Under the pieces are notes generated by a model that searched no databases, was not told the DNA's origin, and saw nothing but the letters and a program-made list of their open reading frames with translations. A stretch of 64,000 nucleotides of DNA. It comes from Phoronis australis. Lineage: Eukaryota; Animalia; Phoronida. Below are positions 1,215-56,639 of the stretch, piece by piece (the stretch's first letter is position 1; every line of letters begins with the position of its first letter). The stretch covers positions 1,345,796 to 1,409,795 of the forward strand of contig NMRA01000029.1 of the NCBI GenBank assembly GCA_002633005.1, read 5' to 3'. A program made the position numbers and the translations under genes.

Positions 1215-1409
1215 CACAACAGATTCCGACGATTTCGATGCTGACGTGTTTCACGATGTAAAGCGCTTGTAAATCGACTTTCCACCAAGAACTACTGTCT
1301 TCGGTAGTTTTGGAGCACGTTGAAAGTGTGTCGTCTATCGCCAGAGCAGCATAAGATACATCCCTGGTGCTTGACTGTTCGGCGGGCTTATCGAGCAAGT
1401 AAATGGCAT
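1215..1409 (-). CDS. Gene A exon: F-type lectin (FTP)-like domain 2, N-half
   Basis: ttgaag|AT...TGT TGT G|gtaatt, 195 nt, phase 1-1; DAIYLLDKPAEQSST...ALAIDD...TCSKT...SSWWKVDL...GICC matches the FTP pattern KPAxQSS / AxDG / WWxVDL / CC. Confidence 0.85.
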
Positions 1410-1437
1410 CTTCAAATATGGAAAGCATTGTCATGAC

Positions 1438-1439
<2 letters not shown>

Positions 1440-1498
<59 letters not shown>

Positions 1499-1500
1499 AT
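1440..1500. repeat. (CA)n microsatellite
   Basis: Directly visible; a second, shorter (CA)n tract lies at ~1735-1770. Confidence 0.98.
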
Positions 1501-1738
1501 CATTGTATTTCATATAGTGCTTTAAGACATCAAACAGTTATTGTGTTGAGAAGTGCAAATTGGCCTCTGGGGCTGAGACATGAAAGCTGTAAGGTATCAG
1601 ACCTTGTTTTATGTTTTGGCTCAATGGAAGCAAAAGAACCTTACACAGGCAGTATACAAACAGATGCACTCGCGCACTTACATACAAGCGCACACGCACA
1701 CACACGTACCTACCCAGCCAGCCGCCCACCCGACACAA

Positions 1739-1769
<31 letters not shown>

Positions 1770-1803
1770 CATATATCACTGGAACGTGGCTAGCTAGACC
1801 TAC

Positions 1804-2052
1804 CTTGTTGTCTACTATCTTCGAAACTCGCCCACAATTGTTTACCATGGATTTGTATTGAACAAAGCTGTAAAGAAGTCTTTATTCCATTAGACTTGAA
1901 AGTCACGAAGCGTCCATAAGTGTGCGGTGGGCAGCTGACGTGAGGTACAACTCTGTCTTGGTTTGATGTTCTATAGGTGCCGCACAGACAGTCGTCCATC
2001 GATGGAGTGGTCGATTTCGACAGAGTTATAGAAATAGTTTTTTCCTTAGAAT
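1804..2052 (-). CDS. Gene A exon: F-type lectin-like domain 1, C-half
   Basis: tcgcag|AT...CAA G|gtaggt, 249 nt, phase 1-1 (an alternative donor gtaaac near 1846 is possible); DSKEKTISITLS...CG...C...YGRFVTF...LQLCSIQIHG matches the FTP GRYV...LxLCEVxV motif and parallels exon 25229-25453. Confidence 0.8.
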
Positions 2053-5870: not shown

Positions 5871-6065
5871 CGCAACAACCCTTCGAGTATTCCACCGATA
5901 CCGATTCAACGACGTGGAAAGTTTCCAAGTCCAATCTCCACCATGATGAGTTCCCTTGTGCTGTCTCAGCGCACGTTTGCTCGAGTCCATCGGTTGCTAG
6001 TTCTGCTTTCAAATCTCGGTAAGTACTCGACTGATCTGCAGGCTTTTTACTGATGTCAATTATAT
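5871..6065 (-). CDS. Gene A exon: F-type lectin-like domain 1, N-half
   Basis: ttgcag|AT...TGT TGC G|gtaaag, 195 nt, phase 1-1; DIIDISKKPADQSST...LATDG...TCAET...SSWWRLDL...KGCC. Confidence 0.85.
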
Positions 6066-6550: not shown

Positions 6551-6635
6551 CTGCAGAATGGGGGTGGATTGACAGGAGAGCTGTTAAGGCTAAAAGTGTG
6601 GTGACAAAAATGTGGTTTGCAATTGCTTGATGCAT
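6551..6635 (-). CDS. Gene A first coding exon: signal peptide
   Basis: ATG at 6635; MHQAIANHIFVTTLLALTALLSIHPHSA-G has a hydrophobic core and ends at a consensus CAG|gtaagt phase-1 donor that is in frame with the 6065 acceptor. Confidence 0.7.
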
Positions 6636-7450: not shown

Positions 7451-8240
7451 GAAGGCGAAGGCAACACTTTTTCATGATATTTTTAGCAAAAATAAGGTTC
7501 GTTGATCATCTCAGGTATGTTTTTCAATTACTTAAGCTTTTTGTAATTTAAGCAATTACTCTTCTTCTGCTCCGGAGGTGACGTTTTGACATGTCACACT
7601 GTTGCTGCGTACCGAGATGTACTCATTACCGTCTCATGGACAGAAGAACAACTATCTCACTTGCCCGAGTGTCTCGCGACACACTCCCAGTGGATAGTGA
7701 CCTATGAGCACACAAACAGCTTACATGCCGCCGTGTGACTCCCTCACCACACTCCTGGTACCTTTTAAGTAGCTCCAATACTTTAGACAAGTCCAAAATA
7801 AACTTATCAAAATTTAAATAGCTCACCGATCTTTTCATTGAACGGCGAACTGTCCTCTTCACTGGGTGTCAAACTGGGCCTGTATTCACTCCCACTACTT
7901 AACATCGCAACAGGGCTGCTTACAGGCTCTGGGCGATAATGAGTACGCTGCAACCGTGTGGCATGTTCACTGACTCGTAAACAAAAGCAAACGACGACCG
8001 AACTTATCGCAACCGAGGTAGAACAATAACTGAATCGACAGCTCCCACAGTGAGACTACATATATATGAAAAGAAATTGGCGAGAAATTCTTGCCTATCA
8101 AAACGTCACTTCCGGAGTAGAGAAGGAATAATCAATTAAATTACGAAAAGCTGTAATTAAGTGAAAAGTATGTCTGGGATAATCAACGAACCTTACTTTT
8201 TTACTCAAAACGACATGAAAAATATTGCCGTCGTCTTCAA
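7451..8240. mobile_element. Non-autonomous Kolobok-like element with long TIRs and a THAP-start remnant
   Basis: gaaggcgaaggcaa...ccggaggtgacgttttga at left mirrored by tcaaaacgtcacttccgg...ttgccgtcgtcttcaa at right; same family as the element starting at 52520; contains a CCCVPxC-coding remnant at ~7600. Confidence 0.65.
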
Positions 8241-12735: not shown

Positions 12736-15700
12736 CTACAGTTCTAAGTGTCGACTGTTAAATTTGAGTGGTCTTTTGAGAAGAGCTGTTAATACTAAAA
12801 CTATGAAAACTGTTTTAGTCGGTTGGAGGCAGAATATATTGAAAAGTAACCCAATGGTGAAAGCAGAAATCCACTGAATACTTTGGTGGTACCCATGCTG
12901 TATTCCGTAAAGTATTGAAAAAATTGACGACAACACGCATACTGCTGCTAGAATGGTCCACGAGATGATAATGGTCCACCAAGGCAACCTGCAACTACTA
13001 CCTTTCTTCCGATACCGATTGACTGAGTCATTGGGTAAAGCTTGTTTAGCCACTGTCGCAGACGACCGAGCATTGGCATTTTTCAATTCACTAGCCTTAA
13101 CCAACTTTAAAGCAACTTCACCGGCACTAATGGACGCCTCAGCCGAAGTCACGGAAAGTTCACTAACAGTAACGGAGTCTAAATAACTACTTGATGACGT
13201 GTCATTGGAGTCATCACATTCATTGGGAAGATATTGTGGGCTGTTGTTAAGGTTCACGTTGCATGTTCTGAAACGGCTGGCACTGGCGTAGACCGTGGCA
13301 TGTGTAGAAGAGTTACCCCAATCACGCAATGCCATAACATGTTCTCTAGTAGAGCTCGTGTCCTCGGTTTGATCTTTGGCGTTTGCATCTCCAGATGACG
13401 CCTCCAGGTCACACGTTTGAGCATCCAACTGATCATAGATTCCCATTTTTTTTCTCGGTTCGGTCAACCGAAACAGAGACACTATTGCCAGTTCAAAAGG
13501 CAAGGCGAACACGCTAGAATTTAACCCAAACAATATCACTGCCCACGCATTAACACGCGTTTCTAGCCTTGTCCAGTCAGCAGCATCGACGTTAACTTCA
13601 AAGCAAGCTATATCGATACACATTGTGACAAGGAGAATCATCCCAGCACAGGACAGCCGCTCCACACAAGTGAAGTGACTTTCTGGCGGTCTACCGAAGA
13701 CGCTGTAGAATATATGTTCATCGCAAAACCCTCGCTTCATATTAATATTATACGTATTGCGGAAACCTCTCATATCATCCCGCGTGGCCGCACAAAGTTC
13801 CCTGGCGGTCAGACCGCCGTCCTTGTCCTCTGCCAGCCAATTATTGCACAAGAAATACCAAATCTGCCTCGAGTGCATGTCCTGTACACACATGCTGTGA
13901 AGATACCAGGCTGGTGCATTACCGGTGTTGTCGTGCCAGATGTGCACTTTGCCCACAACACCCAGGCATTGATTCGTCTTCATTATGAACGCGTGCTCTG
14001 TCCCACGATACATGCTGCTATTTCTATTTATGTTATTTAAGTGGTGTGTAAGACTGACGCCTTTGTTACCCACAAGACAGATGTAGACTCTGGCCGTCGT
14101 GGATGCACCTCGATGCCAACCCGTGAGCACAACTATCAAGTAGCAGTGGTTATATGAATCGTTGCTGTCACACAAATAAACTATTTCATTACACCTTTTG
14201 TAATAATTGTCAAGTCTTCGGGCAAACGGAACCAGGAGGATGAATAGTAACCAAACTACTCCAACGGATAGGGCAACGACGAAATTTTCTCGAATTTTAT
14301 GAATAAAAGAGACTGCATCTGGTATATGCAACGGATTTGGGAGCTTAAACCACCCGGCAGCCACGGATGTCAGATGGTTGCAAATACAGACGATTTTCCT
14401 CCGTGAAGTTCTTTGCGACGGCCAACAACCGTAGTTCGACCATCTGTCTTCATCGGCGTTGAAGTAGTAACAAGCCAAGTAATTAAGTTCGTATTTTAGG
14501 ACCATCACGTCCTTTTTGCCTGATACACATCTTTTGTCGGTGTTGTTGATCATTGGTGTCAACATCACTTTGTATCGACATTTGCCGTGTTCGGTGAACA
14601 AGTTGTGTTCAGAACTTCTTTGCAGCCACACTGTCCAATTATTCGACAACGAAAGGCTATCATTTATGATCGGAACACTATTTATTTGTGTTTCGTCCGT
14701 TGCAACAATTCCAATGGCAAGGTTAAGTTCTTTTGCATTGGGAAATTGGATTATAGCAGCGTCTAGTCTCAGAATTTCTACCGTCCAGTTAATTTTTTTT
14801 GTCCGTGTTGACACGCTCTCTGCATTTGTGCATGCTAATGGAACAGAATACGTGAAAGTGTAACCTGTACGATTTCCTTCGTCGTCTATAAAGTATGTAA
14901 ACTCTGTTACTGGCGTGTTTCCATTCGGTTTCACAGACACGGGCTCCTTCTTGTCGACCAATTGATACTTTACGGAGATGATCCCTGTTGTTATTTTGCC
15001 AGAGTCTGTAGACCAATTGTAAAGATTGTCAGCTATCCATACAGATTTCGAAATGACAGCTGAATTAAAGCCAGGTTGAAAACCGACAATTATGTCATTC
15101 GCTTGAGAAAGTTGCACGGAGCAATATTCAAAGTCAACGGAATTCTCGAGGTCAGCTGGATCCTTCACATCAACATGGATTGCTATCTTGTTGTTGGACA
15201 TCTGAGTTGGCGCTTCTCCTACTACCTTGATCAAAGAAATGCCGTCAGCTATTAAGTCCACAACTTCAGCTATCTTTTTCGTGGCCGCCATAGGTTTGCC
15301 ACTTTTCAGTACTGGATTTTGATCACCGACTTTCAGAGCATTTTGCAAAACGGTGCTGGTCGCGTTCAGAGCTTCAGTCAAGATTTGTAACGTTTCTTCT
15401 CGGTCACGAGCATCGCGCCCTACCTTACTTGTTATAGCCCTTACAATTTTATTCAATACGGTGGCAGCCATGGAGACAGATTCTATCGTCTCTGTGAATG
15501 ATTCTGTAATCCTTGTCAGTGACAGCACGGCCAATTCACTCGCCAGCACCGGTGGTGGAAGTTTATCAAAGACGGAGAGCAACGTGTTACTTCCATTCCG
15601 CAAATCTTCGTTCTGATCTGCCACTTCATGTACCATGCTTGATGTATAACAAATTAAAGACAGAACACGTGCAAAGTTTCCTTCCGACAGCAGCTTTTCT

Positions 15701-16415
15701 ACATTGCCTGTCGTGTGTTGAAGGACGCTTCTTACACAATCAGCAGTGCTTAAATTCCGTTTAATATATGGGAATTCAATGTCTTTTGTAATTGAAGTTC
15801 CGCAACAATCCATAGCCTTAACGCGGATGTAGTTGCTTCTGTTTTGCATAAAAGGAAACCTACCTGTAAACGTGGGCTCTTTCGACTGACCTAAAAATAA
15901 TGCCGGACCGTTGTGTCCAGTCACTGAGTAGAACTCGTAATTCACCCTAGATGCACTAACTACATTTGAGACGAAACGGGTGCATGACACTGTAAACGAA
16001 ACAAATAGTGTTTGCGTTATTTTTGGCTCAATGCTGCACGTGCCGGCGGTCAGAAGATAATTTTTCGCAACAATAGTAAAACTCCTTAGCAACTTTTCAT
16101 GAGGAAAAATATATGCCTTGAATATGTATTGAAGATCAGGCTTGAGAGAATGAGCCACGATTTCCAAGATGTTTTTCTCAGGGCCTGATGTCTGCAATGG
16201 TATCCGTTCGTTGCTTTTCTCCCTAATGCTCGCTGTCCAGTTATAAATGAGAGGTCGCAAGTGTGAACACCTGGTACAAGTCGCAACAAGCACAATCGCA
16301 CGATCTGTGCGAGCGTATTCCCTGCGATCCATAACACAGTTTGTGGCGCAACGTATCTGAACTTCAGGACAGTTTCCTTTCCCATCCACGCCAGGACAAA
16401 CAAACACTGGGGAAG
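12736..16415 (-). CDS. Gene B terminal exon: polycystin-1/REJ-like (partial REJ, GAIN/GPS, TM1, PLAT/LH2, TM2-TM5); no channel domain
   Basis: 3680-nt exon from the phase-1 acceptor ttccag|CT to TAG. GPS: CYYF...WSNYGC...VCICNHLT. PLAT: YLIVVLTG...TTARVYI.LVG...WHDNTG..PAWYL...WYFLCNNWL. Post-PLAT: RPPESHFTCVERLSC. TM4: LPWW...ILYG. TM5: WISAF...CLQPTK. Confidence 0.93.
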
Positions 16416-17197: not shown

Positions 17198-17455
17198 CAG
17201 TTCTTATGTATAACGAGGCGCTCGACACGTCTTTAAATACTTCTTTAACTGTGTGCACTGCAACCTGGTACGATGTGTTTGGTTGGAGACCTCGGCAAAT
17301 TCCCTGCAATCCTTCCACCTCATAACTATGAATAGTCCCAGAGCCCATGCACGTGAGGCGGTACTTGTCCTTGCTGCCCTCTGCCTCTTTCCAAGACAGC
17401 TGAATCGAGTCCGTGGTTACTACTCTAACGACGACGCTAGTCACTCTTGCAAGGT
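17198..17455 (-). CDS. Gene B exon: fibronectin type III domain
   Basis: ttgaag|AC...ACT G|gtaaca, 258 nt, phase 1-1; SIQLSW...Y...GLQPNTSYQVAV. Confidence 0.85.
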
Positions 17456-20848: not shown

Positions 20849-21100
20849 CAGTCTTGATGGCAATGACTTTGCGAGCAGGTCGGAAGTGTCCGTGGATCGT
20901 CGACAGGGTTATGTTGTTACTAGTGCCTGGTATCAAATCACTGAAAGTAAATTTCCTGGCCAAGGGGTCCAAATTGTAAACTCCGTCAGGGTATTCCAGC
21001 TGATAACCCTCCCTGATAGCATTGCGCGGTTCAGTCCACGTGAGTACAATGCGACCATCGCGGCGTTTGTATGGACGGATACGTCGAACTGGTTGGATTG
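20849..21100 (-). CDS. Gene B exon: fibronectin type III domain
   Basis: tttcag|CA...ACT G|gtaagc, 252 nt, phase 1-1; IVLTWTEP...GYQLEY...FSDLIPGT. Confidence 0.85.
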
Positions 21101-24659: not shown

Positions 24660-24908
24660 GTTCACAAGGCTTGACACTGCACCTTTCGAGCTGTGTGTGT
24701 GCCCCAAGGTCTACGTAACACCAAACTCCACTAACTTTATTACCCTCTTCCGGATGACGTCGGCAGTAGTTCTTACTTCTTTGTACATCTGGTTTAACTG
24801 CTTTATCGGTTACAGACTTCCACCATTGACAAGGATTGCCCAGATGGTCTTCTCCGGTGAATCCTTCGTAGTAGTTGTCTGTCGGTCCATAGCAGACGTG
24901 GAAATTTG
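24660..24908 (-). CDS. Gene B exon: kringle domain
   Basis: attcag|CA...GAA C|gtaagc, 249 nt, phase 1-1; CY...Y.G...G.PCQWW...NYCR...WCY...C...C with six Cys. Confidence 0.9.
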
Positions 24909-25228: not shown

Positions 25229-25453
25229 CACCCAATCGTCTCCCTGCAATCTCTATCTCGCAAAGACCAAATGAAGCTTGGTGGTTAAATTTGACAGTGA
25301 CGTATCGGCCATAGCTCTTGTCGCTCTCTCGGCACAAAACCGTAACGGAATCTTTGATGTCTCTCTGGCTGGAGGATATACCACACACATCGTCCTCTTC
25401 AGATGGTACAGCCGACATTGAAAGGGTGATGACAAAGTTTTGTTTTTGGGAAT
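25229..25453 (-). CDS. Gene B exon: F-type lectin-like domain, C-half
   Basis: ttgtag|AT...GGT G|gtacgt, 225 nt, phase 1-1; VCG...LC...YGRYVTV...LCEIEIAG. Confidence 0.85.
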
Positions 25454-26771: not shown

Positions 26772-27916
26772 CTTGGATGTAAAATAGATTTACACGTATT
26801 TTACATAAGCACACATTCGAGATGTCTATCGTCATCTAAAAAAATTCCACACACTTTCTTATGGAGGACATTTACATGTATAGTGTCGAAATCCAATGTC
26901 AAAGAGTAGATAATTTGAATATTGACGTAGCTCGAAAACTTGACAATCTTATGAGTTCCATTAACGGGTGTTAAGTTTCGTACAACGTTCGCTGAACAAA
27001 GTAAATCTGTCACTAGAAAGTCTCTGGTGGGACTAAATTTTATCGCAGGGTCACGTGTCGCTGTTGAAGAGTACAATCAGGTTACTTTTTGGTTGAGATC
27101 CTCCCCACAAAAGGCAGATATGTCAGAGCTACTACTGGGTGTATCACCATCACCATTCAAAGTTACATGAAGGTCAATTAGCCCGTCCACCCGCAGGGTC
27201 ATTACGTCACTTTTGTGCGCTACTTGATTTTAGACAATTGCCAGCACGGATGCATATGCGGTTCAGTCAACGGCCTTAGTCACTCGAAAGTGCGTCTCGT
27301 TGGAGTAGGAACAATCTGGGACCAATTGTATGAAATTAAATGGACTAAATTAGAAAATTCGATTTTTTTGAACGAAACAAGAGGTTTTGGCCGCTTATGT
27401 GACTTGGCAGACAGGCCTCTCTGCCCATTTATCATAACATCAGAAATGGCGGAATAAAAAATACATTTTCTGAATGTCAATTTTGAATTGATATCAATGG
27501 GGCATTGATTGAGTCACGTGACCACGTTTTTCTGGTAAAATCAAACGTAAAGGCACATTCGTAGAGACAAATGGTTTCAATAAGGCGAACAAATTTCTAG
27601 TGATAAAAATATGGAAGATGACATCCCTACGGGGCTGGAAAAGGATTTAGGCAGTCTGTTAGCTGTATGAAGAATGTCATATACAGCTTTGTACCACGGC
27701 TAGGAAAAGACATGCTCAGTTACTTTATTGCCAACTCGAGCGCGCAACTCATACATGTAAGTCGAGTTCCAAACCTGGTAGTCGAGCTCTCGACTTATAA
27801 GTCGGGCGACAGATTTATTTCACGAGCTTAACAACGACTGTGATCGTAAACATGGAAGTTGCCGTGACCACTTTCTTTCATCTCGGGCTCAGCCAAGTTG
27901 AAATGTGCACTGTTTT

Positions 27917-34959: not shown

Positions 34960-37900
34960 TCACTGTAATTTCGGTACGGCGGACGAAACAACACGATAAC
35001 TAATAAGCTTGATAGGTTTCCTCAGTATCAAGGTTACCACCATTATAATCAGCATGGTTTTCAGCCACTCAACACAGAAAACGCTGATCAGCATTCCGAT
35101 AAGAAACGAGACCAACCACTGTAAACTTCTGTAGTATCCGTATTCAAGCCCGTAAAGCACTGTGAGGAAAGAGAACGTAAAACTCATCGTGAACAGTACC
35201 AACCATATGACGTAAAGGGACCAACGAGGCAACAGGAGGCGCGTCGTTGTCTCCTTTACGTTCATCTGAGAAACATTGGGCACACTGTAGTTGTTGTTGT
35301 TATTTTGTCCAGGGAGACCATGAAAAGACTTTCTCGTATCTTCACAAGGGGACTCTGATACTTCATATGAGATAGACGTTGTCACAATATCACTTGAGAT
35401 TGTATCAGGCAAAATCAGTGCCGTCGATAATTGACTGTCTTGCAAAGAGATTTTATCATCAGCAGTTTCTGTATCGAACGAATTGCCAGATTTAGAATAT
35501 CGCGGAAACTCGGCCTTCTCGCCGGTGTTGTCGGCAGATTGTGTTTGGTTCCAGGCAGCTGACTGGATCAACACAGGAGTTTCTGGTGGAGGTTGGACGC
35601 GTTGAAACAGCACGGTGAAAATAAAAATCAGAGGAAATACTATCAGACTCACTGGAAAACTAAAGGAAACTGCCGCCATGATATCAAAAGTTTCACCAAC
35701 GTTTTCACGAAGGGAAAACTCCGCAGAGGAAATATCTGCAAACATGGTCGACAGCACCATCAATAGCGCACACGAGAGACGTTGAACATAAGTGAAATCA
35801 CTGTCTGGTGGCCTTTCTATTATACTTATCCACAAATGATAGTTACGTGGTCCTCGGTTGGTTTGTATTGGGAATACATTCTTCAACGCAGTTAGTTCCT
35901 TGGGTGAAGCAACAGCTAGTTCCCGTATCGTTGCACCGTCCCCTTTGTCAGTACCCAACCAGTTGTTGCATAAGAAATACCACAATGCTCCTGTCTGGAG
36001 ATCACACACGCATAGAGCGTGGAGGTACCAACTAGGGGATTCACCTGAGTTGTCGTGCCAAATCGTAGCTCTACGCAAATGTCCTAGGCACTTTTCGGTC
36101 GTCAAAATGAAAGCACTTGCAGAACCGCGCATCATCCCGTTACCTATCCCGCCGCAAATATGGCGAGACAATGTCTCACCACGATCTCCAACGAGCGTTA
36201 GGTAGACATTGGCTTTCGTTAGAGCATCCGTTTGCCATCCAGTGAGCACAGCAACAACGTACACATAGGGATATGACCTATGGTTGTCTCTTGCACGGAA
36301 AGTACGTAAAATTCTCTCGCACTTTTTGTCCCTTCGTCTCACCACGGGAAGAAGTAGAAAGTACAATCCCCACACAACACAGACTGCAGTTAAAACAATA
36401 TAATTTGTATCCACTGACTCCAGCAGTTCCACCGCCCTCTCAACATGTAGAGTGTTCGGCAGTCGAAGAAGCCCGCCTGCGTAAGTCGATAGGTGGTTGC
36501 ATTGGCAGTAAAGGGAATCTTTGGTTGGCCTGCGTGATAACCAGCACCCAGACGTATTCCAGACTGCAGCTTGCGTTTGCCAATATAAGCAAGCGTACTG
36601 TTTTATCTCTAATACAAGTTTAATGTTTTTTGCAATGTTGGACCTACACCTTTTGTCTCTTTTATTTATTTCTAGACCAACTGCCGCAGAAATGACGTTC
36701 TTTTTATTGTTTTCCAGTAAAAATGACCAATTAGATTGCCTTGAAATTACAAACAGCCTTTTTCCGCGCAAGTCCTCAAAGTCCTTTCCGGTTATATTAG
36801 TACTCGCTTCTTTCGCAATTGCCCAAATGGTGGCGTTGATGTCATGACCGTTCGCAAATCGTATCAAAGCAGCACCTTTGCCTTGTAGTAGAGTTTGGCT
36901 CTGTATGAAATCGAAATAGAGACGTCTTTTAAGACTCTCACATGCCGACGGTATAGAGTAATTCAGGTGAACAAATTCTCCCTTTTGACTTCGATTTATG
37001 GAGAATTTGATGCCTATCGAGATTCCATTGTCCCTCTTAGTGGTTAAAATGTCGTTCTTGAATTTGTCTTGATACTCCAAAGACATTATTCCTGTAGCAA
37101 TTACGGCGATATTTCTTGACCAAAAGTAAGGGTTGTCAATGAACCCTAAAACTTTGCACATCACCGTCAAATTATGTCCATGGTGTTGACGTAGGAACAT
37201 TTTAACTCTTCCAGTATCCAGAATACCTCCTTTAAAGGGAAGAAATCTCTTCAAATCATTAGCCGCGGTGAATTCCGCTAAGACTGAAACGCGGTCATAA
37301 GCTATTAATGTCGGTTTTTCGCCGAAATTCATCACCTCCAGTGTGGCATCAGCTATAGAATTCAGAACACCGACAAGTTCTTTAGTCAATGATTTTCTCC
37401 TCCAAATATTCAACTCCTCACCGTTCGTTGAACGATTGCCCAACGCATTAGCAAAAATGTTACTCGCCGTTTGAGTTGCTTCTTTTAACACCTCGGTACT
37501 TTGGGAACGGCTTTGGTTTTGGACCAGGTCATTCCTTAACATATTAAGGTAGTTCGTTAATGTCTTTGCCGCAGCTATTGAAGGTTCAGCGCTGACGACG
37601 CCGGTCATAGACGTAACCTTCATCATTGTGCTGATAGCCTGCTTTACTCTTTCAGCAGATACCCGTAAAGCGGTTAACATCTTGAGTAGCTTTTCTCGTT
37701 CGCTTGCTTCTGTTGACGTAAACGAGCTGAACTCGATCAGCGCCAGCGCCTGACCTATATGTCCGGTGTTTTGGAGACTTTGAAGCAAACCTTCCAAGGA
37801 TTCCATCGATGAACGCGGGTCTCTTGGATCCTGAATTGAGACACGTGGAAACTCGATATCTGTCCCGTGCCTGGCTCCGAACTTATCGATGACGATAACT

Positions 37901-38477
37901 GTTAAAATATTCTTGCAATCTTTAAAGTATGGGAAGATGCCAGCGTACTCGGGTGCATCCGTGCGTCCAAGAATCACTTGAGTCCGGTTTCCGCAACGCG
38001 CCATGTACTCGTATGTCAAATCTGGAACTTCAAAGATGACGTTCGGGCAAGTTACGGTGAAGTTTACCAGAGATATTCTTGGAACGTCGACGAGTATGAT
38101 ACACCCATCCGCTTCAAATTGAAACTTCTTCACCTCTACTTCGTAATCTGCTGAAATCGACATGTCATTAATTCTCATTCCTACTTTGAATGTGTACTTC
38201 GTATTTGGGGTCAAAATCTGGGACTCGATTTCGAGAACTTTGCCTTCAGTCAGTGTGCTGTCAGCCTCTATGTTAGGCACATCTATATCGTCTCTAACTG
38301 ACGTCTCTATCTTCCAGTTGTAGGTCACATACTTGTAAAATTTGCAGTTGACACACACGGCACGTAGTTTCAACAACTTGCCAGGTCTTATATGAGAAGT
38401 CTGGTCAATGGGGCAGTTCGTGAGGCACACCACAAACACGCGAGGACATAGGCGAATGCCCTCTAGGATAGCACAAG
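34960..38477 (-). CDS. Gene C terminal exon: polycystin-1/REJ-like (partial REJ, GAIN/GPS, TM1, PLAT/LH2, TM2-TM5); no channel domain
   Basis: 3518-nt exon from the phase-1 acceptor ttgcag|CT to TGA. GPS: CLYW...WNTSGC...YCQCNHLS. PLAT: YVVAVLTG...ANVYLTLVGDRG...WHDNSGESPSWYL...WYFLCNNWL. Post-PLAT: RPPDSDFTYVQRLSC. TM4-5: LPRW...VLYG...WLVSF. Collinear with gene B. Confidence 0.93.
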
Positions 38478-38805: not shown

Positions 38806-39087
38806 CTGTTTTTGTACCGTTGTACTTCTTCAGAGCACTTGAGACCTCAGTCCAGCCCGCTTTTTTCGTTGTCACCGAAACAAAGTACCAGGAGGCTGGT
38901 TCTAATCCCGCGCAGATACCGTGATTGCTGATGTTGTTGACAACGGCGGTACTTGCCACTCGTCCAGAACGAACAGAAATGCAGGAGATCAAGTAGACGT
39001 CTTTCTTTCCTCTGGCATGTGTCCAAGTTACACTGAGCGAAGAATATGTCTGGCTCATAGCGCCGACGTCTCTCACCACAGCCAGTT
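38806..39087 (-). CDS. Gene C exon: FN3 domain 7
   Basis: taccag|AA...ACA G|gtacat, 282 nt, phase 1-1; SLSVTW...Y...GLEPASWYFVSV. Confidence 0.88.
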
Positions 39088-39331: not shown

Positions 39332-39610
39332 TTGTTTTGGTCATCTCATCTTTCACGAAATTCCACGAATCTTTCCATCCGTCTTTTTTCGTGGATATCT
39401 TTACAGAATACCAGACGCCCGCAGTCAACCCGCCACATGAGGCAAAATTAGCTGAAGAATTAACAATCTGTCTACTAGACCTCGCAATTTGTTCGCCAGG
39501 AACACAGTTTACCGAGTAGTAGTCCTTTCCTCCTTCAGCATGCGTCCAGTTGAAACTAAGTAACGACTGCGTCTGAAGTATCACCGTAATATTCCGCGGA
39601 CAGTCCAATT
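39332..39610 (-). CDS. Gene C exon: FN3 domain 6
   Basis: ttgtag|AA...ACA A|gtaaat, 279 nt, phase 1-1; PRNITV...FNW...GLTAGVWYSV. Confidence 0.88.
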
Positions 39611-40271: not shown

Positions 40272-40553
40272 TTGTTTTGGATGTTTCGTCTTTCACGAAA
40301 CTCTCTGAAGAATCGTTCCATCCGTCTTTTTTAGTGAATATCTTTACAGAATACCAGGTGCCCGCTGTCAACCCGCTACAGGAAGCAAAATTAGCTGAAG
40401 AATTAACAATCTGTCTACTGGATAGTGCACCTTGTTCGTCGGAAACACAGTTTACCGAGTAGTAGTCCTTGTCACCTTCAGCATGTGTCCAGTTGAAATT
40501 CAGTAACGACGGCGTCTGAAGTATCACAGTAATATTCCGCGGACGGTCCAATT
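40272..40553 (-). CDS. Gene C exon: FN3 domain 5
   Basis: ttgcag|AA...ACA A|gtaaat, 282 nt, phase 1-1; close paralog of 39332-39610. Confidence 0.88.
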
Positions 40554-42155: not shown

Positions 42156-42437
42156 TTGTTTTGGTTGAGTCATTTCTCAAGGCAACCGTAGCAATCTTAG
42201 GCCAGCCGCTAACTTCCACAGACACAGAGTATTGAGTTCCTGGCGTCAACTCATGACACATCCCTTTGTTTGACGAGACATTAACCCGAGATAGCGTAAC
42301 ATTAACACTAGCCGATAAACATGGAGTGCAGGTCACGATGTACCATAACACCTCGTTATAGTTGTCATGATTCCAACCAACAAGCAGCGACTTTGTCGTC
42401 CGTTGGAGGACGGAGATTCCAGTTATTTTCCAAAAAT
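42156..42437 (-). CDS. Gene C exon: FN3 domain 4
   Basis: ttttag|AT...ACA A|gtgggt, 282 nt, phase 1-1; SLLVGW...ELTPGTQYSVSV. Confidence 0.85.
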
Positions 42438-43800
42438 CTAAAAAATGAAAAGGCGTGCTACCTGACGGCTGATCAAACATGCAACCGCGACGCAGCTACA
42501 CGAAATCAATGCTTTAGTAACAAAAGTTGATATCAAAACTCAAAAATTTTGGAACGAAGCAATCTTTTAATACTTAATGTCACAAGAAAGTTGTTGCTTT
42601 GTGGCAAACTGTTGAACCCCCGTAACAGCCAAAGCAGTCTGTACAGTTGGCGGCAATCACATGTAGCACAAGTGCTCGAGGTCTAACATTTGTACTCAAA
42701 TCTAACTCGAAATTTTTGTTGCCATTTCCCGTCCTGCTTTTATAAGATCTCAAGAAAATTGTCTGTCAAACTGTTCACTTGGTACTTTTACGGTTTGTTA
42801 GTAAAGATTTCTTGAATTTCTGTTGAAGTAGAAGAATTTTTTCTTAAGTTTGAATAACAAAAAACGTTCTGTCACTTAGTGGTTTTTTCTCCAACACGGC
42901 AAAGCACGTCTGGTTATATGTTCTGGCAAGACATAGACGTAGCGAATTTCCCTTATATGGAAATTGTGACCTTTGATCTTTGAAGTAAACTTCAGAATGG
43001 CGACTTCAAGCACCAGCCATTTTGATTCCTTTGAGCGCTTGCACACATGCATGTTGTCAGGAGTGGAGAATTTGAAAAGAGTTTTGGATGAAAGAGTTTA
43101 TATTTCGCCTGTTTCAAAAATAATGAATCTAACGACTCTCATCGAAATTCTTGCAATATTAAAAGTGCATCCCGAAAATTAGGTCTGTCGAAAATACGAA
43201 CTTTCGCTTTCTATTGCTCTTTAAAGTAGAAGGGAAAATTGAAAAAAATAATATGACTTTTACTACAAATATTATACCTCGGTCTCTGGTGTCAGTCTGC
43301 ACAACATTTTCTCCAAGGTCTTTTCCAATGTTTTTTACTCATGCTTCAAGTCATTCTCCACTTCTAAAATCACATGGAGCGCTGTTTGACTGACTTCGCA
43401 TAAGCGCAGATAAAATTCCCTTCCGAGACAGAATTTGAGGTTACCGATATAACCCAGGTGTTCCGAATTGTTCAGATTCAATTTAGAAACTCAAAAAACG
43501 AAGACGAACTCTATTAGAAAGCACTTACTTGAAGGTTTGGCATTAGGATCACCCAATGCTGAAACAAATCAACAAATCTTATCCCACGAGCGTTTTAAGC
43601 ATATGGTTGGTACATGTACAGTAGACACGGCAACAAAATCCTAATGTGCAATGCGATGCGTTATTTCCAATGCAGTTCAGGTGGCATAACCTAATCACAT
43701 ATGAACATATTCGTTTTGAACCTCTTGCATGGCTGAATGAAATTAGCACACGCTGTGTAAACAACTGAATTTACCAAGGACCACACTTGTAACTTCTCAC

Positions 43801-44067
43801 CGCTCATTACGCCGACAGTTTCCGCGTCAGGCCACTCCGCTCTCTTTGTAACAACTGTTACTATGTACCATGAGTTGGGACTCAATCCTGTACAAGTTGC
43901 TGTCTCTGAACTCGAGTTCACCACCACTGTCACGTTTATTCTAGACGTATCATTTGGAATGCACTGAACTTCGTAAAAGTCTTTGTAGCCACCAGCAGGT
44001 TCCCATTGTACCGTCATTGACGAAATAGTACTTTCATCGACTGTTACATTCTTGGCAATCTCCAGGC
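43801..44067 (-). CDS. Gene C exon: FN3 domain 3 (donor uncertain)
   Basis: ttttag|GC...AGC G|gtgaga, 267 nt, phase 1-1; SMTVQWEP...GLSPNSWYIVTV. Confidence 0.8.
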
Positions 44068-44605: not shown

Positions 44606-44896
44606 TTGTTTTCGTAGAGTTGTCCATAATTATATACTTCTTCGGGGACAAGAAACCTGTTTTCTTTGAACAGATACGGACAAAATATTGAATTCCCGGA
44701 ACCAATCCGGAACACGTTCCACTGCGAGACTTCGTGGGCACTACCAAAATTCTGCCGTTGGTCACGGGCAAAGCGTTGTCATAGCTCAAGCAATCGAGTT
44801 GATAGTAGTCCTTGTCTCCTTCTGTGTGCAACCACTCGGCAGTCAGCGACGTCGGTGTCTTATGAATAATCCGACCTGATTTTACAGCGGAAATCT
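44606..44896 (-). CDS. Gene C exon: FN3 domain 2
   Basis: tgttag|AG...ACA A|gtacgt, 291 nt, phase 1-1; SLTAEW...GLVPGIQYFV. Confidence 0.85.
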
Positions 44897-49400: not shown

Positions 49401-49828
49401 TCCTAGGTGCCACTTAATTAACCTTTATTAGCAAGTTGTCACGTTCTGTTTAGATCTTCAGGAACTTGTATTGAGTAGGAATCTTCACTCTGTAGTATGG
49501 GAGGATCGTAGTGTTGTTACATTCGAATAGTATCAATGTAAGAGTCATTTCCGGTACGTCGATCGTCTGACATTCACAATACAAGTTAGTTCCTGATTTA
49601 CTTGACTGTTTTATTAGACTAACTAACGATGCAACAGTGGCATTACTGCGTCATTTTATATCCACTTGAGAATGAAATAAGTATGTTTCAAAATATCGTG
49701 TATTTTTTAATTATGTCGCTAGGTCAGTTACTTCATCTATGTTCCGTTGATAGTAGAGTTTTATTCCGAACTTATGAACGAAACGGAATAAAGACTGTCA
49801 ACAACGAAAAGTGTCGTGTGTTTAATCA
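46411..49828. mobile_element. Inverted-repeat (MITE-like) element interrupted by the LTR retrotransposon
   Basis: 46411-46480 (tgattaaacacacgacacttttcgttgttg...ttcggaataaaa) is the near reverse complement of 49759-49828. Confidence 0.7.
46606..49636 (+). mobile_element. Ty3/Gypsy (Mag-like) LTR retrotransposon, internally deleted and defective
   Basis: 130-bp LTRs at 46606-46735 and 49507-49636; 5-bp TSD GTGGC; PBS TGGCGACGAGGA at 46737; purine tract before the 3' LTR; gag-like (RKKALLLHYIG), RNase H (VDASP, TDHKPL), integrase zinc finger (H...HQG...C..C) and core (DF.GP, TDNGP, NGEAER), with stops and frameshifts. Confidence 0.95.
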
Positions 49829-51104
49829 GTTCTGCATTTGAATATTATAAGAATGTTTAGAAAAATCGCCAGACTCCCCACTTTTGAAACACAAAGAAAT
49901 AAACGCGGCTACTCTTAATAATCATTTTGTTTACATTAAATATCAAAGGTCACGTTTTCCATATTAGGGAAATGTGCTACGTCGTTTATGTCTCGCCGTA
50001 ACAAATGAGAAGACGTGCTTTGCCTTGTGGGAGAAAGTGACGAGCAGTTGTCGGATCCTATTTCGTTTGAAAATCGAAACTAAAGGAAAATGCTTTGACA
50101 CCAACAAAAACCCATAATCTTTACAAATATACCTTAAAACTACCTGGTGAACAGTTTTTGTTCTGTTTCAGTCGCAGAAAACCACTGTTGAATAATGCAA
50201 TTTAGTCTGTTTCCGCGTTCTTTGCCTCTTTAAAAGTGCGAGTTTGTACTTGACGCATGTGCACATTGCCTTTGAATTGAATTGCACATTCTGAAAAATT
50301 AGGATCAGACAAGTGTCTGATAAACTCCGAAGCACTTTGGTTTGCACTTCGAAATCTACACTGTGGCGAAATGTCCCTATACGTCGATCGGCTGCGATTT
50401 CATTTCTTGAAGCTGTATTTCGCCCTGTTTAGCTCGTTGAAAAACAAAAATCGAATTACATGTAGGCTTTTTGGTCTCATAAAATTTTGTCTCTTACCAT
50501 TCATTTTCACCAACTTTTGATCGCACCCTACTCGAACTCTGAATCCACGTTAAAATACCCCTATAGGCTCCACCCCATTTACCTCGTTCAAGTTTCAATT
50601 TGTCATGCCTTCGCTTAGGTCTATACGCTGTATCGCGGAGGCCTATACGTGTACACAGTCTAGTAATTCCGCTTTATATACACGTCTGTAGGCGGCGACA
50701 ACTTGTGCCGTCACAATGTGTCAGTACAGTGTACGTACATGTATTATCTCAATGATTACCGGCTGATATCAATACACATATTTTCGCACGCGCTATATGT
50801 TGTGGCACGGACGAGCAAAAGTGTCGAGCGCGACAGTTTACGTCAATTATGTTACAATTTATGTCACAACACACGCCAGAACAGAACGTCATTGAAAAAC
50901 GACGGGCAACAATACAAACTAAGGATAAGGTCTGACATTCCATCGAAAATAGTCAACTACAAGGGGCCCAGTTTGAAGATTGGGAAAAATCGGTTATCTC
51001 AAAATTCGGGACCCCTGTAAGTTATTATTACAATTTCACAATCATAAAAACTCCACACTATTATTCAAACCTGACTGCACAAGACTTTCCACTGAGGCTC
51101 TTAC

Positions 51105-51350
51105 CGGTCTTGCAACTAACAGAGACATGAACGGGATAAAAATGCGTGTGCACTGTCGAGATACGGACATTGTATCGATTCCCTGGGGTCAGGTTGAAGC
51201 ACGTGAACTTCCTCGAAGTGACTTCGACATGTCCTATCTCCTTCGGACACTCGATTATGTAGCCCTCTTTGTAACCTGGTGCCGACTGCCAACGAACTAT
51301 CACGGTGTATTTGTGGGACTCGCAGCTTACCCTGGACACTTTGGCGAGTC
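51105..51350 (-). CDS. Gene C exon: FN3 domain 1
   Basis: gcttag|GA...ACC G|gtaaga, 246 nt, phase 1-1; VIVRW...EGY...NLTPGNRYNVRISTVH, positional paralog of 20849-21100. Confidence 0.88.
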
Positions 51351-51879: not shown

Positions 51880-52116
51880 CTGTGCATTCGCTTACTTTGC
51901 AAGGCTTCGGTTCGGCTCCTCCCACGGGGTAACACCAAGTGCCAGGACTGAGGTCATTTAGATTGGGATTTCGACAGTAGTTTTCAATCAGTTTCTGATC
52001 TTCGTCGAAAGAACGAATCCGAAAATCCCATCTTTGGCATTCATCCCCGTCCGCCGTCACGTTTACTCGGCCAGTGTAGTGAGAATCCAACGGTCCGAAA
52101 CACGACGAAAAGTCCG
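51880..52116 (-). CDS. Gene C exon: kringle domain
   Basis: ttctag|CG...ACA G|gtgggt, 237 nt, phase 1-1; CF...YTG.VNVT.DG.ECQRW...NYCRNP...WCY...C...C. Confidence 0.92.
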
Positions 52117-52519
52117 CTAGAATGAGCAAGGAGGTCTTAAGACACCTCGTACTCCCGTTTCCATTGTTTGTTCTCGAAACAACTCAAAAATAGCAAATAC
52201 ATTCCAAGCGAAGGTCCTATCAGCAGGAAAATCAATTAAATGAGATCAGCTTCTGCGGGGAAACCCGCGATCCCAATTTTACACTTTCCTGGGGTGCCGC
52301 TTAATAAATGCCAGAATATTTTAAGCGCTTTTAACTAAAAGCCACCGACCCTGAATTCAGCGAATGTCTGAAAGAATTGGCAAGTTGCACTAAAATCATT
52401 AGAAACAAAGCGGAGTTTTCAGATATGTACTGAAGCTCCGCTAATCAAAACCAACGACCGCACAAAGTCCACCTCTCCCAGTCATGATCGCATCAGCCAT
52501 AAATACGGGCAATGCCCCT

Positions 52520-53095
52520 TTAAAGGCAAAGGCAACTTTTTTTCATGTCATTTTTAGAAAAAATAAGGTTCATTGATTATCCCAGACACATTTTTCACTT
52601 ATTTACTGCTTTTCGTAATTTAATTAATTACTCGTCGTCTACTCCAGAAGTGACGTTTTGGGAGGCAAGAATTTCGCGCCAATTTCTTTTCGTTATAGTG
52701 TGACTGTGAGAGCTGTCGAGTCAATCATTGTTCTACCTCGGTTGTGATAAGTTCGGTCGTCGTTTGCTTTTGTTTACAAGTCAGTCAACATCCCACACTG
52801 TTGCTGCGTGCCGGGATGTACTCATTATAGTCTCACACGCGCTTTGGGTACCTTGCGTTGCTTTCCGAAGGATGACACACTACTTCGCCGTACTTGGCTA
52901 GCTCGTTTATGTGAAGAACGCAGCGCTACCCGTCCACGCAACGTACAAAGCAGTGGAGGGTTACCGAGTGTGTGGCAAGCATTTTCTGCCGTCAGATTAT
53001 GACAGATATGTACACTGAATTGATGAAGGTCCCTGGTTTTTAATCTTTCAGATCAATGACAAATCAACTATTAGTCCCGGCAGTCCCTACTGCAC
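52520..53095 (+). mobile_element. Kolobok-like transposon 5' part with frameshifted THAP domain
   Basis: TTAA-AGGCAAAGGCAAC terminus; CCCVPGC...FPKD..LRRTWL...(frameshift)YRVCGKHF...PAVPT is the complete THAP signature including AVPT. Confidence 0.75.
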
Positions 53096-53375
53096 CAGGA
53101 CTTAAGCTATGCAATTGATGTTAGTATTCATGATGAACAAATAAAAACAGAGGTGATAGCAAAATGCAATGAGCCACCACTGTCGAATATATCTTCAACT
53201 CGTCAACAATACGAACAGATGACCTGGTTTGTGTAGAAAGCATTTTTATCAACAATTTACAATAGGAAACGTAACGCTGCATATAGTACAATACCTAATC
53301 CGTAACACTGTGATCACGGCAATTTGGTCATATTTACTTTCATGTTTCGAACCTAGTTTTCCGAAAAACACTTAC

Positions 53376-53463
53376 ACCCTTTCGTTAGACAACTTTTTGG
53401 TGCAATGTCAACTTCCGTTTTGTTTATCGCAGTGAGCCCCGTTTCTGATTTTAATGTCCGCCA
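53376..53463 (-). CDS. Gene C putative small exon (phase 0-1)
   Basis: ttcaag|TGG...GGG T|gtaagt; WRTLKSETGLTAINKTEVDIAPKSCLTKG; frame-compatible with both flanking exons. Confidence 0.45.
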
Positions 53464-53590
53464 CTTGAATTACGTCTATACATATAGGTTCTGATCTGCC
53501 ATGTGAACGGTGTGGGGAAAGTATTTAACAGTCTGCCAAAAATGAAGGAAACTTAAGAATTCGAAGCGTGTTGGATAATTATAAACTTAC

Positions 53591-53715
53591 CTCGATTGGA
53601 GTAGACGAAGTAAGATCGCACTCGACATTATTCGTTCGGTCTTCGTTGATACGCGGAATAATGTCTCGTGGGATATTACTCCATGTGCGACACTCTCGGT
53701 ACGTTTTGTGTATTT
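53591..53715 (-). CDS. Gene C putative exon (phase 1-0), Cys-containing, possibly a divergent FTP C-half
   Basis: ctgtag|AA...GAG|gtaagt with strong splice sites; open frame EIHKTYRECRTW...NNVECDLTSSTPIE. Confidence 0.5.
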
Positions 53716-55114
53716 CTACAGAAATAATGCGGGGATGTACATTCCAATTGCTCGAAAATCAAGCTGTTCAAGCGAACTTATTCATTCAAATATTCAAAAA
53801 GTATAAAGAAGTGAAATATATTCGGTAAAACTGTTAATGGTTTCTAAATATCGTACTAGAATTCTATATGATTAGAATTTGGACGCTCAACAAGAATCAT
53901 TTCCCTCATTCCTCTGAATTACGTCCTCTTCAAACATTCATTGCTATCACAGGCGCTCGAGGTTCCTGATGACTCATAACAATATATAAGAAACATAAAG
54001 ATTGGACACTAAAAGTAAAACTTTGACGAGTCGAGGCTCCCAACTTCAACTGTCCCAAATCCAAACAAAATCTGCGTGTATCTCCCTCAGACCAGTATTG
54101 CCAAACCTTCGAAGCCTTATCTTTCCTTGATTTTATAAAATTATCCGTGTGCCTGGTGAATTTGCGACGAAATTTTCAAAACAATCTCAAAACTCGGAAT
54201 TCAAGGACCCAAAATAGTTAACATGGTGGATTCCAGTTGTGCTTTAACTTGTACGCCTGTCGAAGATAAAATTTCGAGTTTGAACAACCACTTCTATATA
54301 GATGTCAAGAAATTTATCACCAATTTAAATGATTGAGGTTACTAAAAATCCTTTCATTTCTGTGTTATGTGTTTCTTCTTATAGTTCATTTTATCACTTA
54401 TTGTAGAATTTAATTGCACGAACGGGCGTATCTTGTGTTTGATTTCGACATTATGTGCTCTTTTTTGTTGTAGCACAACGAAAGCACGGGTTTTGGTGGA
54501 AATTTCCGATGTTTTACAGCACGCTTAGTCGTGGTAAATCACCAATCGGCAATTACCGGATTTTGCAGTAGGCCAGCTCTTCAATTATAAACAACATAAT
54601 TTTTCATAACCAGAGTTCTACTACATTCAAACTGATGCTAAATTATGTGGACACTCAGATAACATTCGTGGGCGCGCGAAAACAGAGCTTCGGAATTGCT
54701 TCGGGTACGTTCACCAAAAACCCAGATGCTCGAAAGTCGTCTGCCATAGTCTATGCTGCCATGAATCTCTTACGTCACGAAATAAGGTCCTTAAATTTGT
54801 GATTTTGGTCTTTATTTGTTATTTTTGTCGTCAAAATAGCACTCGAAGACAATTTTGAAGTGACCAAGTGAAAGAAGGTATTCAAATATTTGTTCGATGG
54901 AGATACCGCAGAGTTCCATGCTCATTTGAATAGACAGTTCTGAGAAAACAGATTTTGAGTGTCCAACCTTTGTGTTTACTTAGTTGTGAGTGACGTCAGT
55001 CGTGATCGATGAATATAAACCCAGGCGCTTCGGATTACTATGGACCTTCAGCTCTCAGCTAAGTATTTGCTACAGAAAACTTACTATATAATTGTAAAAC
55101 TGCATTCTACTCAC

Positions 55115-55184
55115 CACTTTTGGACCTGGTAGAAGACCCGTCCGCGGTGACATCAAGGACAAATATTAACAAGTGGAAACCAAC
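55115..55184 (-). CDS. Gene C putative exon encoding the signal peptide C-half
   Basis: gttcag|GTT...AGT G|gtgagt; VGFHLLIFVLDVTADGSSTRSKS, hydrophobic stretch followed by a VTA cleavage-like site. Confidence 0.5.
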
Positions 55185-56639
55185 CTGAACAATTTTATAG
55201 TTTTTTGCAAGCATTCGATTTGCTAACGTTAAGGAATTAAATGCACGTGAGGAAATGAATCAAATACGTGCTGTGTACAAAATAACAGCATGCCAACCGA
55301 TTGTTTAAGCTGCTACGAGAGTTCAATTGAGTGCCACAGGTTAGACATGTACTATAGAGAAATATCTTACCAAATAACAAGGTTTTGAAAGTTCACTTTT
55401 GGTCCCATTTTAGACAAAAAAAAAACCATTCCGATTTTTTGTGTTTTAGAGATCTACTTTCCACGAAAGCGGTCACGCTCAAACGGAATGCGCTCTGAAG
55501 TCACGTTCAAGCAACTTCTTTTCCGCTACCGATTTTCTGGAAACTTTCCACAACACTCTGTCCTAAAACCACAGAACGATTGCCTGTTTGCCTCAAAAAT
55601 CACAACTTAGTCCAACAAAGCCCCTTCTGCCACTCTGTCTCAGGATACTCGGTAAAACATTAAACTTGCGCTGCTGAAAGTACACTCGATGGAGTTTCTC
55701 ACGGATGGAGAAGTCAAACGAAGTCGTGGCCTTTGGTATGGACACCGGAAAAAAATATAGAGGTAAAAAATATCCAAAAACTTGCAAACATGTTATTTTT
55801 CTTCCCAAATTCAGGACTGTCCCGGTCGTACTGCGGAGACAATGTTCCAAACGCTTTGACTCCAAAATTCCAGGAATCTAAACTAAAATAATCCGTTGCA
55901 CACCAAGGTTTTCTATTTGTCAGAACGGGATATGTTTTAACAACAAACATATGGGCCTCAATGCCGGGATTTACAGGATGGCACCGTTAAACCTTAGAGC
56001 GTAAGTCTCAGGGAACTTTTTTGTTCTAAACTTCAGCTAACTAATAAATACACTTAGCATTCGCGACAATCACTCCGGCCTAATTTAGTCCACAAAATAG
56101 CCGTCAAGCCTGTCTCAGTCTATTTCTTTCATTTTGGGAGAGCAACAGGCTGTAGACATTTTACTCGACTGAACACCTCCAATAACTCCGCAAATTTTGC
56201 CTTCGAACGATATGTTTTTAAGCTTCCGAATAAATGTCCTCATGAACGGACCTATTTTGTAAGCACGTATAAATAGATATCGCGGCCGGCTTGTGCAAAA
56301 ATATATAGGAATCACACCATAGAGTTGTAGGCCATTACTTCGCCTGTGGACGCTACTGGCTGCTGATTCTGCCGTTCTCTAGATAATCAGAACAATCATA
56401 ACACACTGGGGCTACAATAGTAGTTTCAATTTTTTGTTTTGGAAGTTTTTAGGCACACCTGAAGTACTCGTGAAAAGTACACTTAGTAAGGTCGGAAGCG
56501 AAAGGTGTCTTTTACAACCTAAAGCTTTTGGACAATGTTGCCAGCATTCTGCTTCTGATTAATTCTGCCGGTTTAGGTAACATAAATGGGCCAAACAAGC
56601 AGGCAGCAGGTGGAAATTGAGATAAGACAAGTGTCATCG

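What the first reader, a model, noticed from the sequence alone, without database searches (positions are those of the whole stretch)
1215..55408. Tandem array of three receptors with variable F-lectin/kringle/FN3 ectodomains on a shared polycystin base
Seen, all on the minus strand head-to-tail: C = signal - unknown Cys domain - kringle - 7xFN3 - REJ/GAIN; B = FTP - kringle - 2xFN3 - REJ/GAIN; A = signal - FTP - FTP... running off the window. Established: known polycystin-1/REJ ectodomains use LRR, WSC, C-type lectin, PKD, SUEL, EGF and sometimes FN3 modules, and REJ proteins act in gamete recognition and sensing. Inference: FTP + kringle + FN3 on a 5-TM polycystin is an unusual combination, and the paralog-specific tips and stalk lengths suggest a diversifying recognition system (gamete, immune or chemo/mechanosensory). 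Membership of gene A is inferred only from its homologous FTP exons.
Basis: partly seen in the sequence, partly recalled or inferred. Interest (0 to 1): 0.8.

Follow-up and report, generated by a model that had tools for sequence, protein, structure and literature searches.

The report
Channel-less polycystin receptors with kringle tips
Two neighbouring genes encode polycystin-type surface receptors that stop before the ion-channel half and carry kringle and fibronectin arms of different length; one is spliced and expressed in RNA data, both likely act as adhesion or recognition co-receptors rather than channels, and a third gene beside them is only a possible member.

Summary
Genes B and C are real tandem paralogs on the minus strand. 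Each ends in one giant exon encoding partial REJ, GAIN/GPS, TM1, PLAT and TM2-5, then a stop 10-20 residues after TM5; the TRP-channel half is absent. RNA reads confirm gene C: the last FN3 exon is spliced to the giant exon (21+26 reads), five more FN3-region joints are seen, and coverage runs past the stop with no splice to channel exons. B (F-lectin-fold, kringle, 2 FN3) has an open in-phase model but almost no RNA and no identified signal exon. C's 'unknown Cys domain' is unsupported. A's membership is untested. The F-lectin-fold domains lack the fucose-binding triad. The 5-TM base is known (Ciona s-Themis-A; fish partial pkd1l3), and FTP or FN3 domains occur on amphioxus and mussel polycystin models. 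A kringle on a polycystin was not found elsewhere in limited searches. No v-Themis-like partner was found, and the recently duplicated FN3 pair is under purifying selection (dN/dS 0.32), so diversifying recognition is not shown. Verdict: a new variant of a known kind.

The parts
55115..55214 (-). Gene C candidate first coding exon (signal-peptide-like, phase 1 out)
   Evidence: sequence; joins kringle exon in frame; not covered by RNA lays
53591..53715 (-).
   Evidence: no Pfam hit
51880..52116 (-). Gene C kringle exon
   Evidence: Pfam Kringle E 6.5e-10
51105..51350 (-). Gene C FN3-1 (counterpart of B FN3-1, 31% identical)
44606..44896 (-). Gene C FN3-2
   Evidence: loose read ends at 44067 match this exon's 3' end (24+19 reads)
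43801..44067 (-). Gene C FN3-3
43529..43558 (-). Gene C 30-nt micro-exon (linker)
   Evidence: RNA joints 43801>43558 (13+21 reads) and 43529>42437 (17+17); in frame
42156..42437 (-). Gene C FN3-4
   Evidence: joint to 40553: 31+28 reads
40272..40553 (-). Gene C FN3-5 (recent duplicate of FN3-6, 83% aa)
39332..39610 (-). Gene C FN3-6
   Evidence: joint from 40272: 38+17 reads
38806..39087 (-). Gene C FN3-7
   Evidence: joint from 39332: 21+18 reads
34960..38477 (-). Gene C giant terminal exon: partial REJ, GAIN/GPS (HL-S), TM1, PLAT, TM2-5, stop
   Evidence: RNA joint 38806>38477 (21+26 reads), depth 31-52, read-through into 3' UTR
27086..27222 (-). Possible upstream exon of gene B (phase 1 to 0, could join an acceptor at 26835); unverified
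   Evidence: no RNA depth
26598..26771 (-). Gene B F-type-lectin-fold domain, first half (acceptor may lie at 26835)
25229..25453 (-). Gene B F-type-lectin-fold domain, second half
24660..24908 (-). Gene B kringle exon (33% identical to C's)
20849..21100 (-). Gene B FN3-1
17198..17455 (-). Gene B FN3-2
12736..16415 (-). Gene B giant terminal exon: REJ-like, GAIN/GPS (HL-T), TM1, PLAT, TM2-5, stop
   Evidence: RNA depth under 1
6551..6635 (-). Gene A signal-peptide exon
5871..6065 (-). Gene A F-lectin-fold domain 1, first half
1846..2052 (-). Gene A F-lectin-fold domain 1, second half
1215..1409 (-). Gene A F-lectin-fold domain 2, first half; gene runs off the window

Best explanation
Genes B and C are tandem paralogs of the polycystin-1/REJ family whose frames end just after TM5, and they likely work as self-cleaving adhesion or recognition co-receptors that signal without a pore of their own. 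Shown: the anatomy, C's splicing and C's natural 5-TM end. Inferred: an ancestral kringle-FN3-FN3-base gene was duplicated; C then lengthened its stalk by FN3 exon duplication, while B and C came to differ at the tip (F-lectin-fold domain in B). The GAIN domain is predicted to cut itself at HL-T/HL-S. Binding or pulling at the kringle/FN3 arm would move or free the stalk before TM1. The five-helix bundle, the cytoplasmic PLAT domain and the roughly 110-residue disordered TM3-TM4 loop would pass the signal on, most likely by modulating a separate full-length polycystin/PKD2 calcium channel, as proposed for s-Themis-A. The stalk length would set the reach. The ligand is more likely protein or matrix than fucose.
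For: Anatomy. The model (mean pLDDT 74, pTM 0.55) shows beta domains, GAIN, TM1, PLAT, TM2-3, a disordered loop at 968-1075 and TM4-5; its fold hits are GAIN domains of BAI3/BAI2/latrophilin, PLAT domains and polycystin-1. TM4-5 align weakly (not significant alone) to residues 518-604 of a 1153-residue human PC1 construct, so about 550 residues are missing. No channel-domain ORF among 44 and 50 downstream minus-strand ORFs. RNA: C is spliced and read strand-specifically in 2 of 3 runs, with no joint leaving the giant exon among 11 listed joints. Constraint: dN/dS 0.32 between FN3-5 and FN3-6, Fisher p 0.002. B and C are sisters, SH-like support 100. [quoted passage not shown]
Against: No ligand, partner, tissue or cleavage was observed. 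The parts known to couple PC1 to PKD2 or G proteins are absent, so the route of signalling is a guess by analogy. B has depth under 1, no listed splice joint and no identified signal exon. C's kringle and FN3-1 joints lay outside both read lays. All 7 listed RNA differences in C's exons change the amino acid, which fits relaxed or diversifying selection better than strong constraint (44 further rows were not shown).
Confidence: 0.6

Rival explanations
1. A Themis-like allorecognition or gamete-recognition locus: the genes would be sperm-side receptors with allele-specific tips that read a partner on the egg coat.
For: Same 5-pass REJ-GPS-PLAT base as s-Themis-A (PMC9265791 passage). C is read in 2 of 3 samples only. 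10 of 11 listed exonic RNA differences in B and C are non-synonymous. About 11 fixed differences lie in 1 kb around B's tip, against 4 listed in C's 3.5-kb giant exon.
Against: No fibrinogen-like antisense ORF among 150 of 201 plus-strand ORFs of 52 aa or more (most of those left out overlap minus-strand exons). The tips are ordinary folded domains rather than a hypervariable region. C differs little between reads and assembly. dN/dS 0.32. 7 of 7 non-synonymous is compatible with neutrality (p 0.15). Tissue is unknown.
Confidence: 0.15
2. Autonomous five-helix adhesion receptors that signal through PLAT and the TM3-TM4 loop (arrestin, kinases, lipids) with no channel partner at all.
For: All known PKD2-contact parts are missing (PMC9672506, PMC8357825 passages). 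GPS consensus is intact in both genes. Truncation at the same point recurs in a separate fish/frog group.
Against: No signalling by an isolated TM1-5 unit was found in the papers read. The only functional precedent was interpreted as a channel helper (PMC7018956).
Confidence: 0.15
3. Decaying or dominant-negative remnants: truncated copies of an 11-TM gene on their way to loss, B perhaps already silent; or B's exons are an alternative 3' module of gene C's transcript.
For: B is nearly unread and lacks an identified signal exon. Fish partial pkd1l3 was read as being lost (PMC5318412). All exons are phase 1, so C's FN3-7 could splice to B's FTP exon.
Against: Both giant frames are intact at only 27% identity, so the shared truncation is old. 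C is well expressed and constrained. No C-to-B joint is listed.
Confidence: 0.1

Closest known systems
Ciona s-Themis-A (PMC9265791, PMC7018956; passages read)
   Same: REJ, GPS, PLAT/LH2, 5-pass membrane domain, no PKD channel; a functional receptor
   Different: s-Themis-A has a hypervariable N-terminus and an antisense fibrinogen-like v-Themis in intron 1; here kringle/FN3/F-lectin-fold tips, a single giant base exon and no such partner found. Its sequence was not in my tree, so kinship is untested.
Ray-finned fish partial pkd1l3 (PMC5318412; passages read) and the fish/frog database group P0067, P0155, P0049, P0052, P0088, P0162
   Same: GPS-PLAT protein lacking the channel domain; the database proteins end 15-27 residues after TM5. 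Plaice P0052 has the same length and domain positions as zebrafish pkd1l3.
   Different: Separate branch from B/C; C-type lectin tip in zebrafish, no REJ, kringle or FN3.
Sea-urchin SpREJ1-10 (PMC1934368; parts 1-2 of 4 read)
   Same: Expanded REJ/GPS family with mixed ectodomains and 0-11 TM
   Different: 20-52 exons, CTL/SUEL/WSC/PKD/EGF modules; none listed with five TM; no kringle or FTP named in the text read.
Amphioxus and mussel polycystin-1-like database models (P0002, P0133, P0123, P0085, P0051, P0142, P0183)
   Same: F5/F8-type or FTP-like domains, in two cases with FN3, in front of GPS-PLAT; P0142 also ends 57 aa after TM5
   Different: Most keep the channel half; none has a kringle; unverified gene models.
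Mammalian PKDREJ
   Same: Intronless REJ-GPS-PLAT-TM coding block (PMC1934368)
   Different: 11 TM with channel; no spliced ectodomain exons in front.

Membership tests
Polycystin-1/PKD1 (REJ) family | GAIN domain with GPS before TM1 | tested here: met
   Pfam GPS in both; fold hits to GAIN structures; HL-T/HL-S
Polycystin-1/PKD1 (REJ) family | PLAT/LH2 directly after TM1 | tested here: met
Polycystin-1/PKD1 (REJ) family | Full REJ domain | tested here: inconclusive
   C matches only profile positions 208-406 of 452, below cut-off; B has no Pfam hit but aligns to C; partial REJs occur in SpREJ8/9 (PMC1934368)
Canonical 11-TM polycystin-1 channel subunit | TM6-11 TRP-like channel half with TOP domain and C-tail coiled coil | tested here: not met
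   stop 10-20 aa after TM5; no channel ORF downstream; no splice out of C's giant exon. For B, RNA was too thin to test.
s-Themis-A-type 5-pass polycystin | REJ-GPS-PLAT with five TM and no channel | tested here: met
s/v-Themis self-sterility locus | Antisense fibrinogen-like gene in the first intron | tested here: not met
   no Fibrinogen hit in 150 of 201 plus-strand ORFs; short or highly diverged exons could be missed
s/v-Themis self-sterility locus | Hypervariable N-terminus among individuals; sperm expression | tested here: inconclusive
F-type lectin | F-type fold homology | tested here: met
   best PDB hits FBP32 (E 3.9e-19) and eel agglutinin 1k12; second half hits FBP32
F-type lectin | Fucose-binding motif HX24RXDX4(R/K) (PMC5712786) | tested here: not met
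   absent in both complete domains and in A's half domain; the His position holds E, K or R and the first Arg position S, V or L; the calcium DG motif is kept in 2 of 3
Gene A as third member of the array | A giant REJ-GPS-PLAT terminal exon downstream | not testable with these tools
   lies left of position 1; no genome is held; only 37-38% FTP identity to B and shared intron position

The most novel reading that the evidence does not exclude
The TM1-5 plus PLAT half of polycystin-1 is an independent receptor class, a five-helix counterpart of adhesion GPCRs, that has been freed from the channel several times (this lineage, fish and frogs, Ciona). Here it serves as a one-exon signalling base onto which phase-1 kringle, FN3 and F-lectin-fold exons are shuffled to build a tandem array of receptors with different reach and specificity.
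Probability: 0.25. Interest if true: 0.7.

Novelty: new variant of a known kind. Interest (0 to 1): 0.45.

Why it matters
What the first five helices and PLAT domain of polycystin-1 do is still open; the channel works without them (PMC8357825). Gene C is a natural, expressed and constrained protein made of only that half, so it offers a clean test of whether this half signals alone or tunes a channel in trans. It also adds kringle to the list of polycystin ectodomain modules, as far as my searches reach. The conserved fish/frog 5-TM group suggests that 'partial pkd1l3' may be a maintained form rather than a gene being lost.

Tried and rejected
No whole genome was held, so the DNA left of position 1 could not be read. 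No indexed RNA run was listed as holder of B's stretch. The first read lay at 90% likeness was dominated by repeats and listed no joint for B; 23 joint rows were not shown. Word-based protein searches gave 4 distant hits and none for the REJ/GAIN part, so no close ortholog is known and the organism was not placed. The grouping of B/C with a Nematostella protein and three unnamed proteins may be long-branch attraction and is not used. Several invertebrate '5-TM' database models sit beside near-identical longer relatives (Pecten, Branchiostoma) and may be split annotations; they are not counted as true truncations. Atlas: the top cluster (0.93, 1362 aa, REJ and PLAT, no channel family shown, 79 members) is a lead only; the second search gave nothing above 0.83. 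A linking exon for C's 'Cys domain' was sought and not found. The first tree run did not finish; FastTree was used. No complex prediction was run, as no partner is known. Paper searches for polycystin with kringle found no description; one search was uninformative. Earlier-finding look-ups found nothing on this locus.
Full report
Setting. The window is intron-rich eukaryotic DNA of about 41% GC; the domain content points to an animal (inference). No genome is held and no close ortholog was found, so the organism was not placed.

Observation. Two giant minus-strand frames exist, 12736-16449 (B) and 34960-38502 (C). Both have GPS and PLAT, C a weak partial REJ, neither a channel domain. They are 27% identical end to end. 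Upstream lie phase 1-1 exons with canonical ends: in B an F-lectin-fold domain in two exons, a kringle and two FN3; in C a kringle and seven FN3; in A a signal exon and one and a half F-lectin-fold domains. The chains are open: B 1612 aa, C 1937 aa, A 227 aa to the window edge. B FN3-1 pairs best with C FN3-1 (31%), and C FN3-5 and FN3-6 are 83% identical, which suggests a kringle-FN3-FN3-base ancestor and later stalk growth in C (inference).

The 5-TM end is real for C. Hydropathy gives five segments after the GPS in both genes. The model of C's giant exon (39-sequence alignment, mean pLDDT 74) shows beta domains, GAIN, TM1, PLAT, TM2-3, a disordered loop and TM4-5; it matches GAIN, PLAT and polycystin-1 structures. 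Human PC1 matches at E 1e-29 over TM1-PLAT-TM2, and the last two helices align weakly to its TM4-5 region, leaving about 550 residues without counterpart. None of 44 and 50 downstream minus-strand ORFs has a channel domain. In RNA, C's giant exon has depth 31-52 on one strand in runs X1 and X2 and under 0.5 in X3. The joint from FN3-7 to the giant exon has 21 and 26 reads. The joints among FN3-3 to FN3-7 and a new 30-nt micro-exon are seen, loose ends tie in FN3-2, and a rare alternative donor at 41186 has 4 reads. Coverage continues beyond the stop, and none of the 11 listed joints leaves the giant exon. C's kringle, FN3-1 and signal exons were outside both lays.

What is weaker. B's giant exon has depth under 1 from both directions and no listed joint; no signal exon was identified. 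C's 'Cys domain' exon ends in phase 0 with no good partner, and a THAP remnant lies in that intron. A shares FTP homology (37-38%) and intron position with B, but its base, if any, is off the window. The FTP domains are true F-type-fold homologs but lack the fucose motif defined in PMC5712786 (passages).

Selection. FN3-5 versus FN3-6: dN 0.10, dS 0.32, ratio 0.32, p 0.002, so the stalk has been under purifying selection. Against that, 7 of 7 listed RNA differences in C's exons and 3 of 4 in B's change the residue. This is compatible with neutrality (p 0.15) and is a small, partial list (40 of 84 rows shown). Diversifying selection is neither shown nor excluded.

Comparison. A profile of the GPS-to-end region found 5418 proteins; the best 150 were listed. 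Of 96 held proteins with a detectable TM4-5, 9 end within 75 residues of TM5; they come from fishes, a frog, amphioxus, a hemichordate and molluscs. In a FastTree of 101 rows, B and C are sisters (support 100), the fish/frog short forms lie in a separate group of 9 rows (6 short, support 100), and the 5-TM label needs 10 changes. Two long members of that group are fused models with two GPS units and one has a channel; some invertebrate cases may be split annotations. Published precedents: s-Themis-A is 5-pass and lacks the channel (PMC9265791 and PMC7018956, passages); fish pkd1l3 lacks it too (PMC5318412, passages); sea-urchin REJs have 0, 1, 2, 6 or 11 TM (PMC1934368, parts 1-2 of 4). Planarian PKD1-likes were described with channel domains (PMC11448475, passages). 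F5/F8-type domains occur on 8 and FN3 on 2 of 37 polycystin models scanned. A kringle was found on 0 of those 37, on 0 of 200 held proteins with a two-sequence profile lacking a positive control, and 0 of 40 kringle hits carry GPS or PLAT; paper searches found no such pairing. This is weak evidence of absence.

Mechanism. Shown: anatomy, C's splicing and end. From literature passages: TM1-5 is a separate domain and the channel half suffices for current (PMC8357825); the coiled coil and G-protein motif lie in the tail that is missing here, while PLAT binds lipids and arrestin and the stalk can act as tethered agonist (PMC9672506). Inferred: C and probably B cleave at the GPS, hold a kringle-tipped FN3 arm outside, and relay binding or force through the five helices, PLAT and the long cytoplasmic loop, most likely to a separate polycystin channel (about 0.6 overall; the anatomy alone about 0.9). 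Rivals are a Themis-like gamete locus (0.15; no antisense fibrinogen-like gene in 150 of 201 ORFs), fully autonomous signalling (0.15), and decay or an alternative 3' module (0.1).

Verdict. Observation mostly right for B and C, unproven for A. A new variant of the known channel-less polycystin design, with a kringle tip and a one-exon base. Interest 0.45.

Noticed in passing
window 46406-49833: In C's intron, a gypsy-type LTR retroelement (LTRs 46607-46740 and 49508-49641, 90% alike; RNase H and integrase pieces on the plus strand, no RT hit in the three ORFs scanned) is nested inside an element with 82-nt inverted ends.
   Followed up: partly
window 24400-25500: Unspliced RNA runs in both directions from about 25.1-25.2 kb inside gene B in X1 and X2: minus-strand over the kringle exon (depth up to 50), plus-strand over the second FTP exon (about 20), with about 11 fixed differences from the assembly. 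It may be an internal promoter, a short kringle-only transcript, or reads from a close copy.
   Followed up: partly
database proteins P0067, P0155, P0049, P0052, P0088, P0162, P0016, P0031: A 5-TM pkd1l3-like form appears conserved from bichirs to frogs, and two fused models place a 5-TM unit directly before an 11-TM unit, which recalls the s-Themis-A/B pairing and argues against simple loss.
   Followed up: partly
window 52558-52999 and 7945-8759: THAP-transposon-like repeat, with inverted copies upstream of gene A.
   Followed up: no
window 7699-8556 and 22382-23289: Near-identical direct duplications flank N runs (8256; 22856-22989), probably assembly artefacts.
   Followed up: no
window 28860-29400: Strong mainly minus-strand RNA in all three runs (depth 42-116) that continues into sequence absent at the N at 28859; probably a repeat or a mis-join.
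   Followed up: no
window 34960-35020: C's short cytoplasmic tail contains an IxYxxV string resembling an ITIM (consensus recalled, not from a call); B's tail lacks it, and such strings are common by chance.
   Followed up: no
window 59213-59416: Reverse-transcriptase fragment on the plus strand.
   Followed up: no
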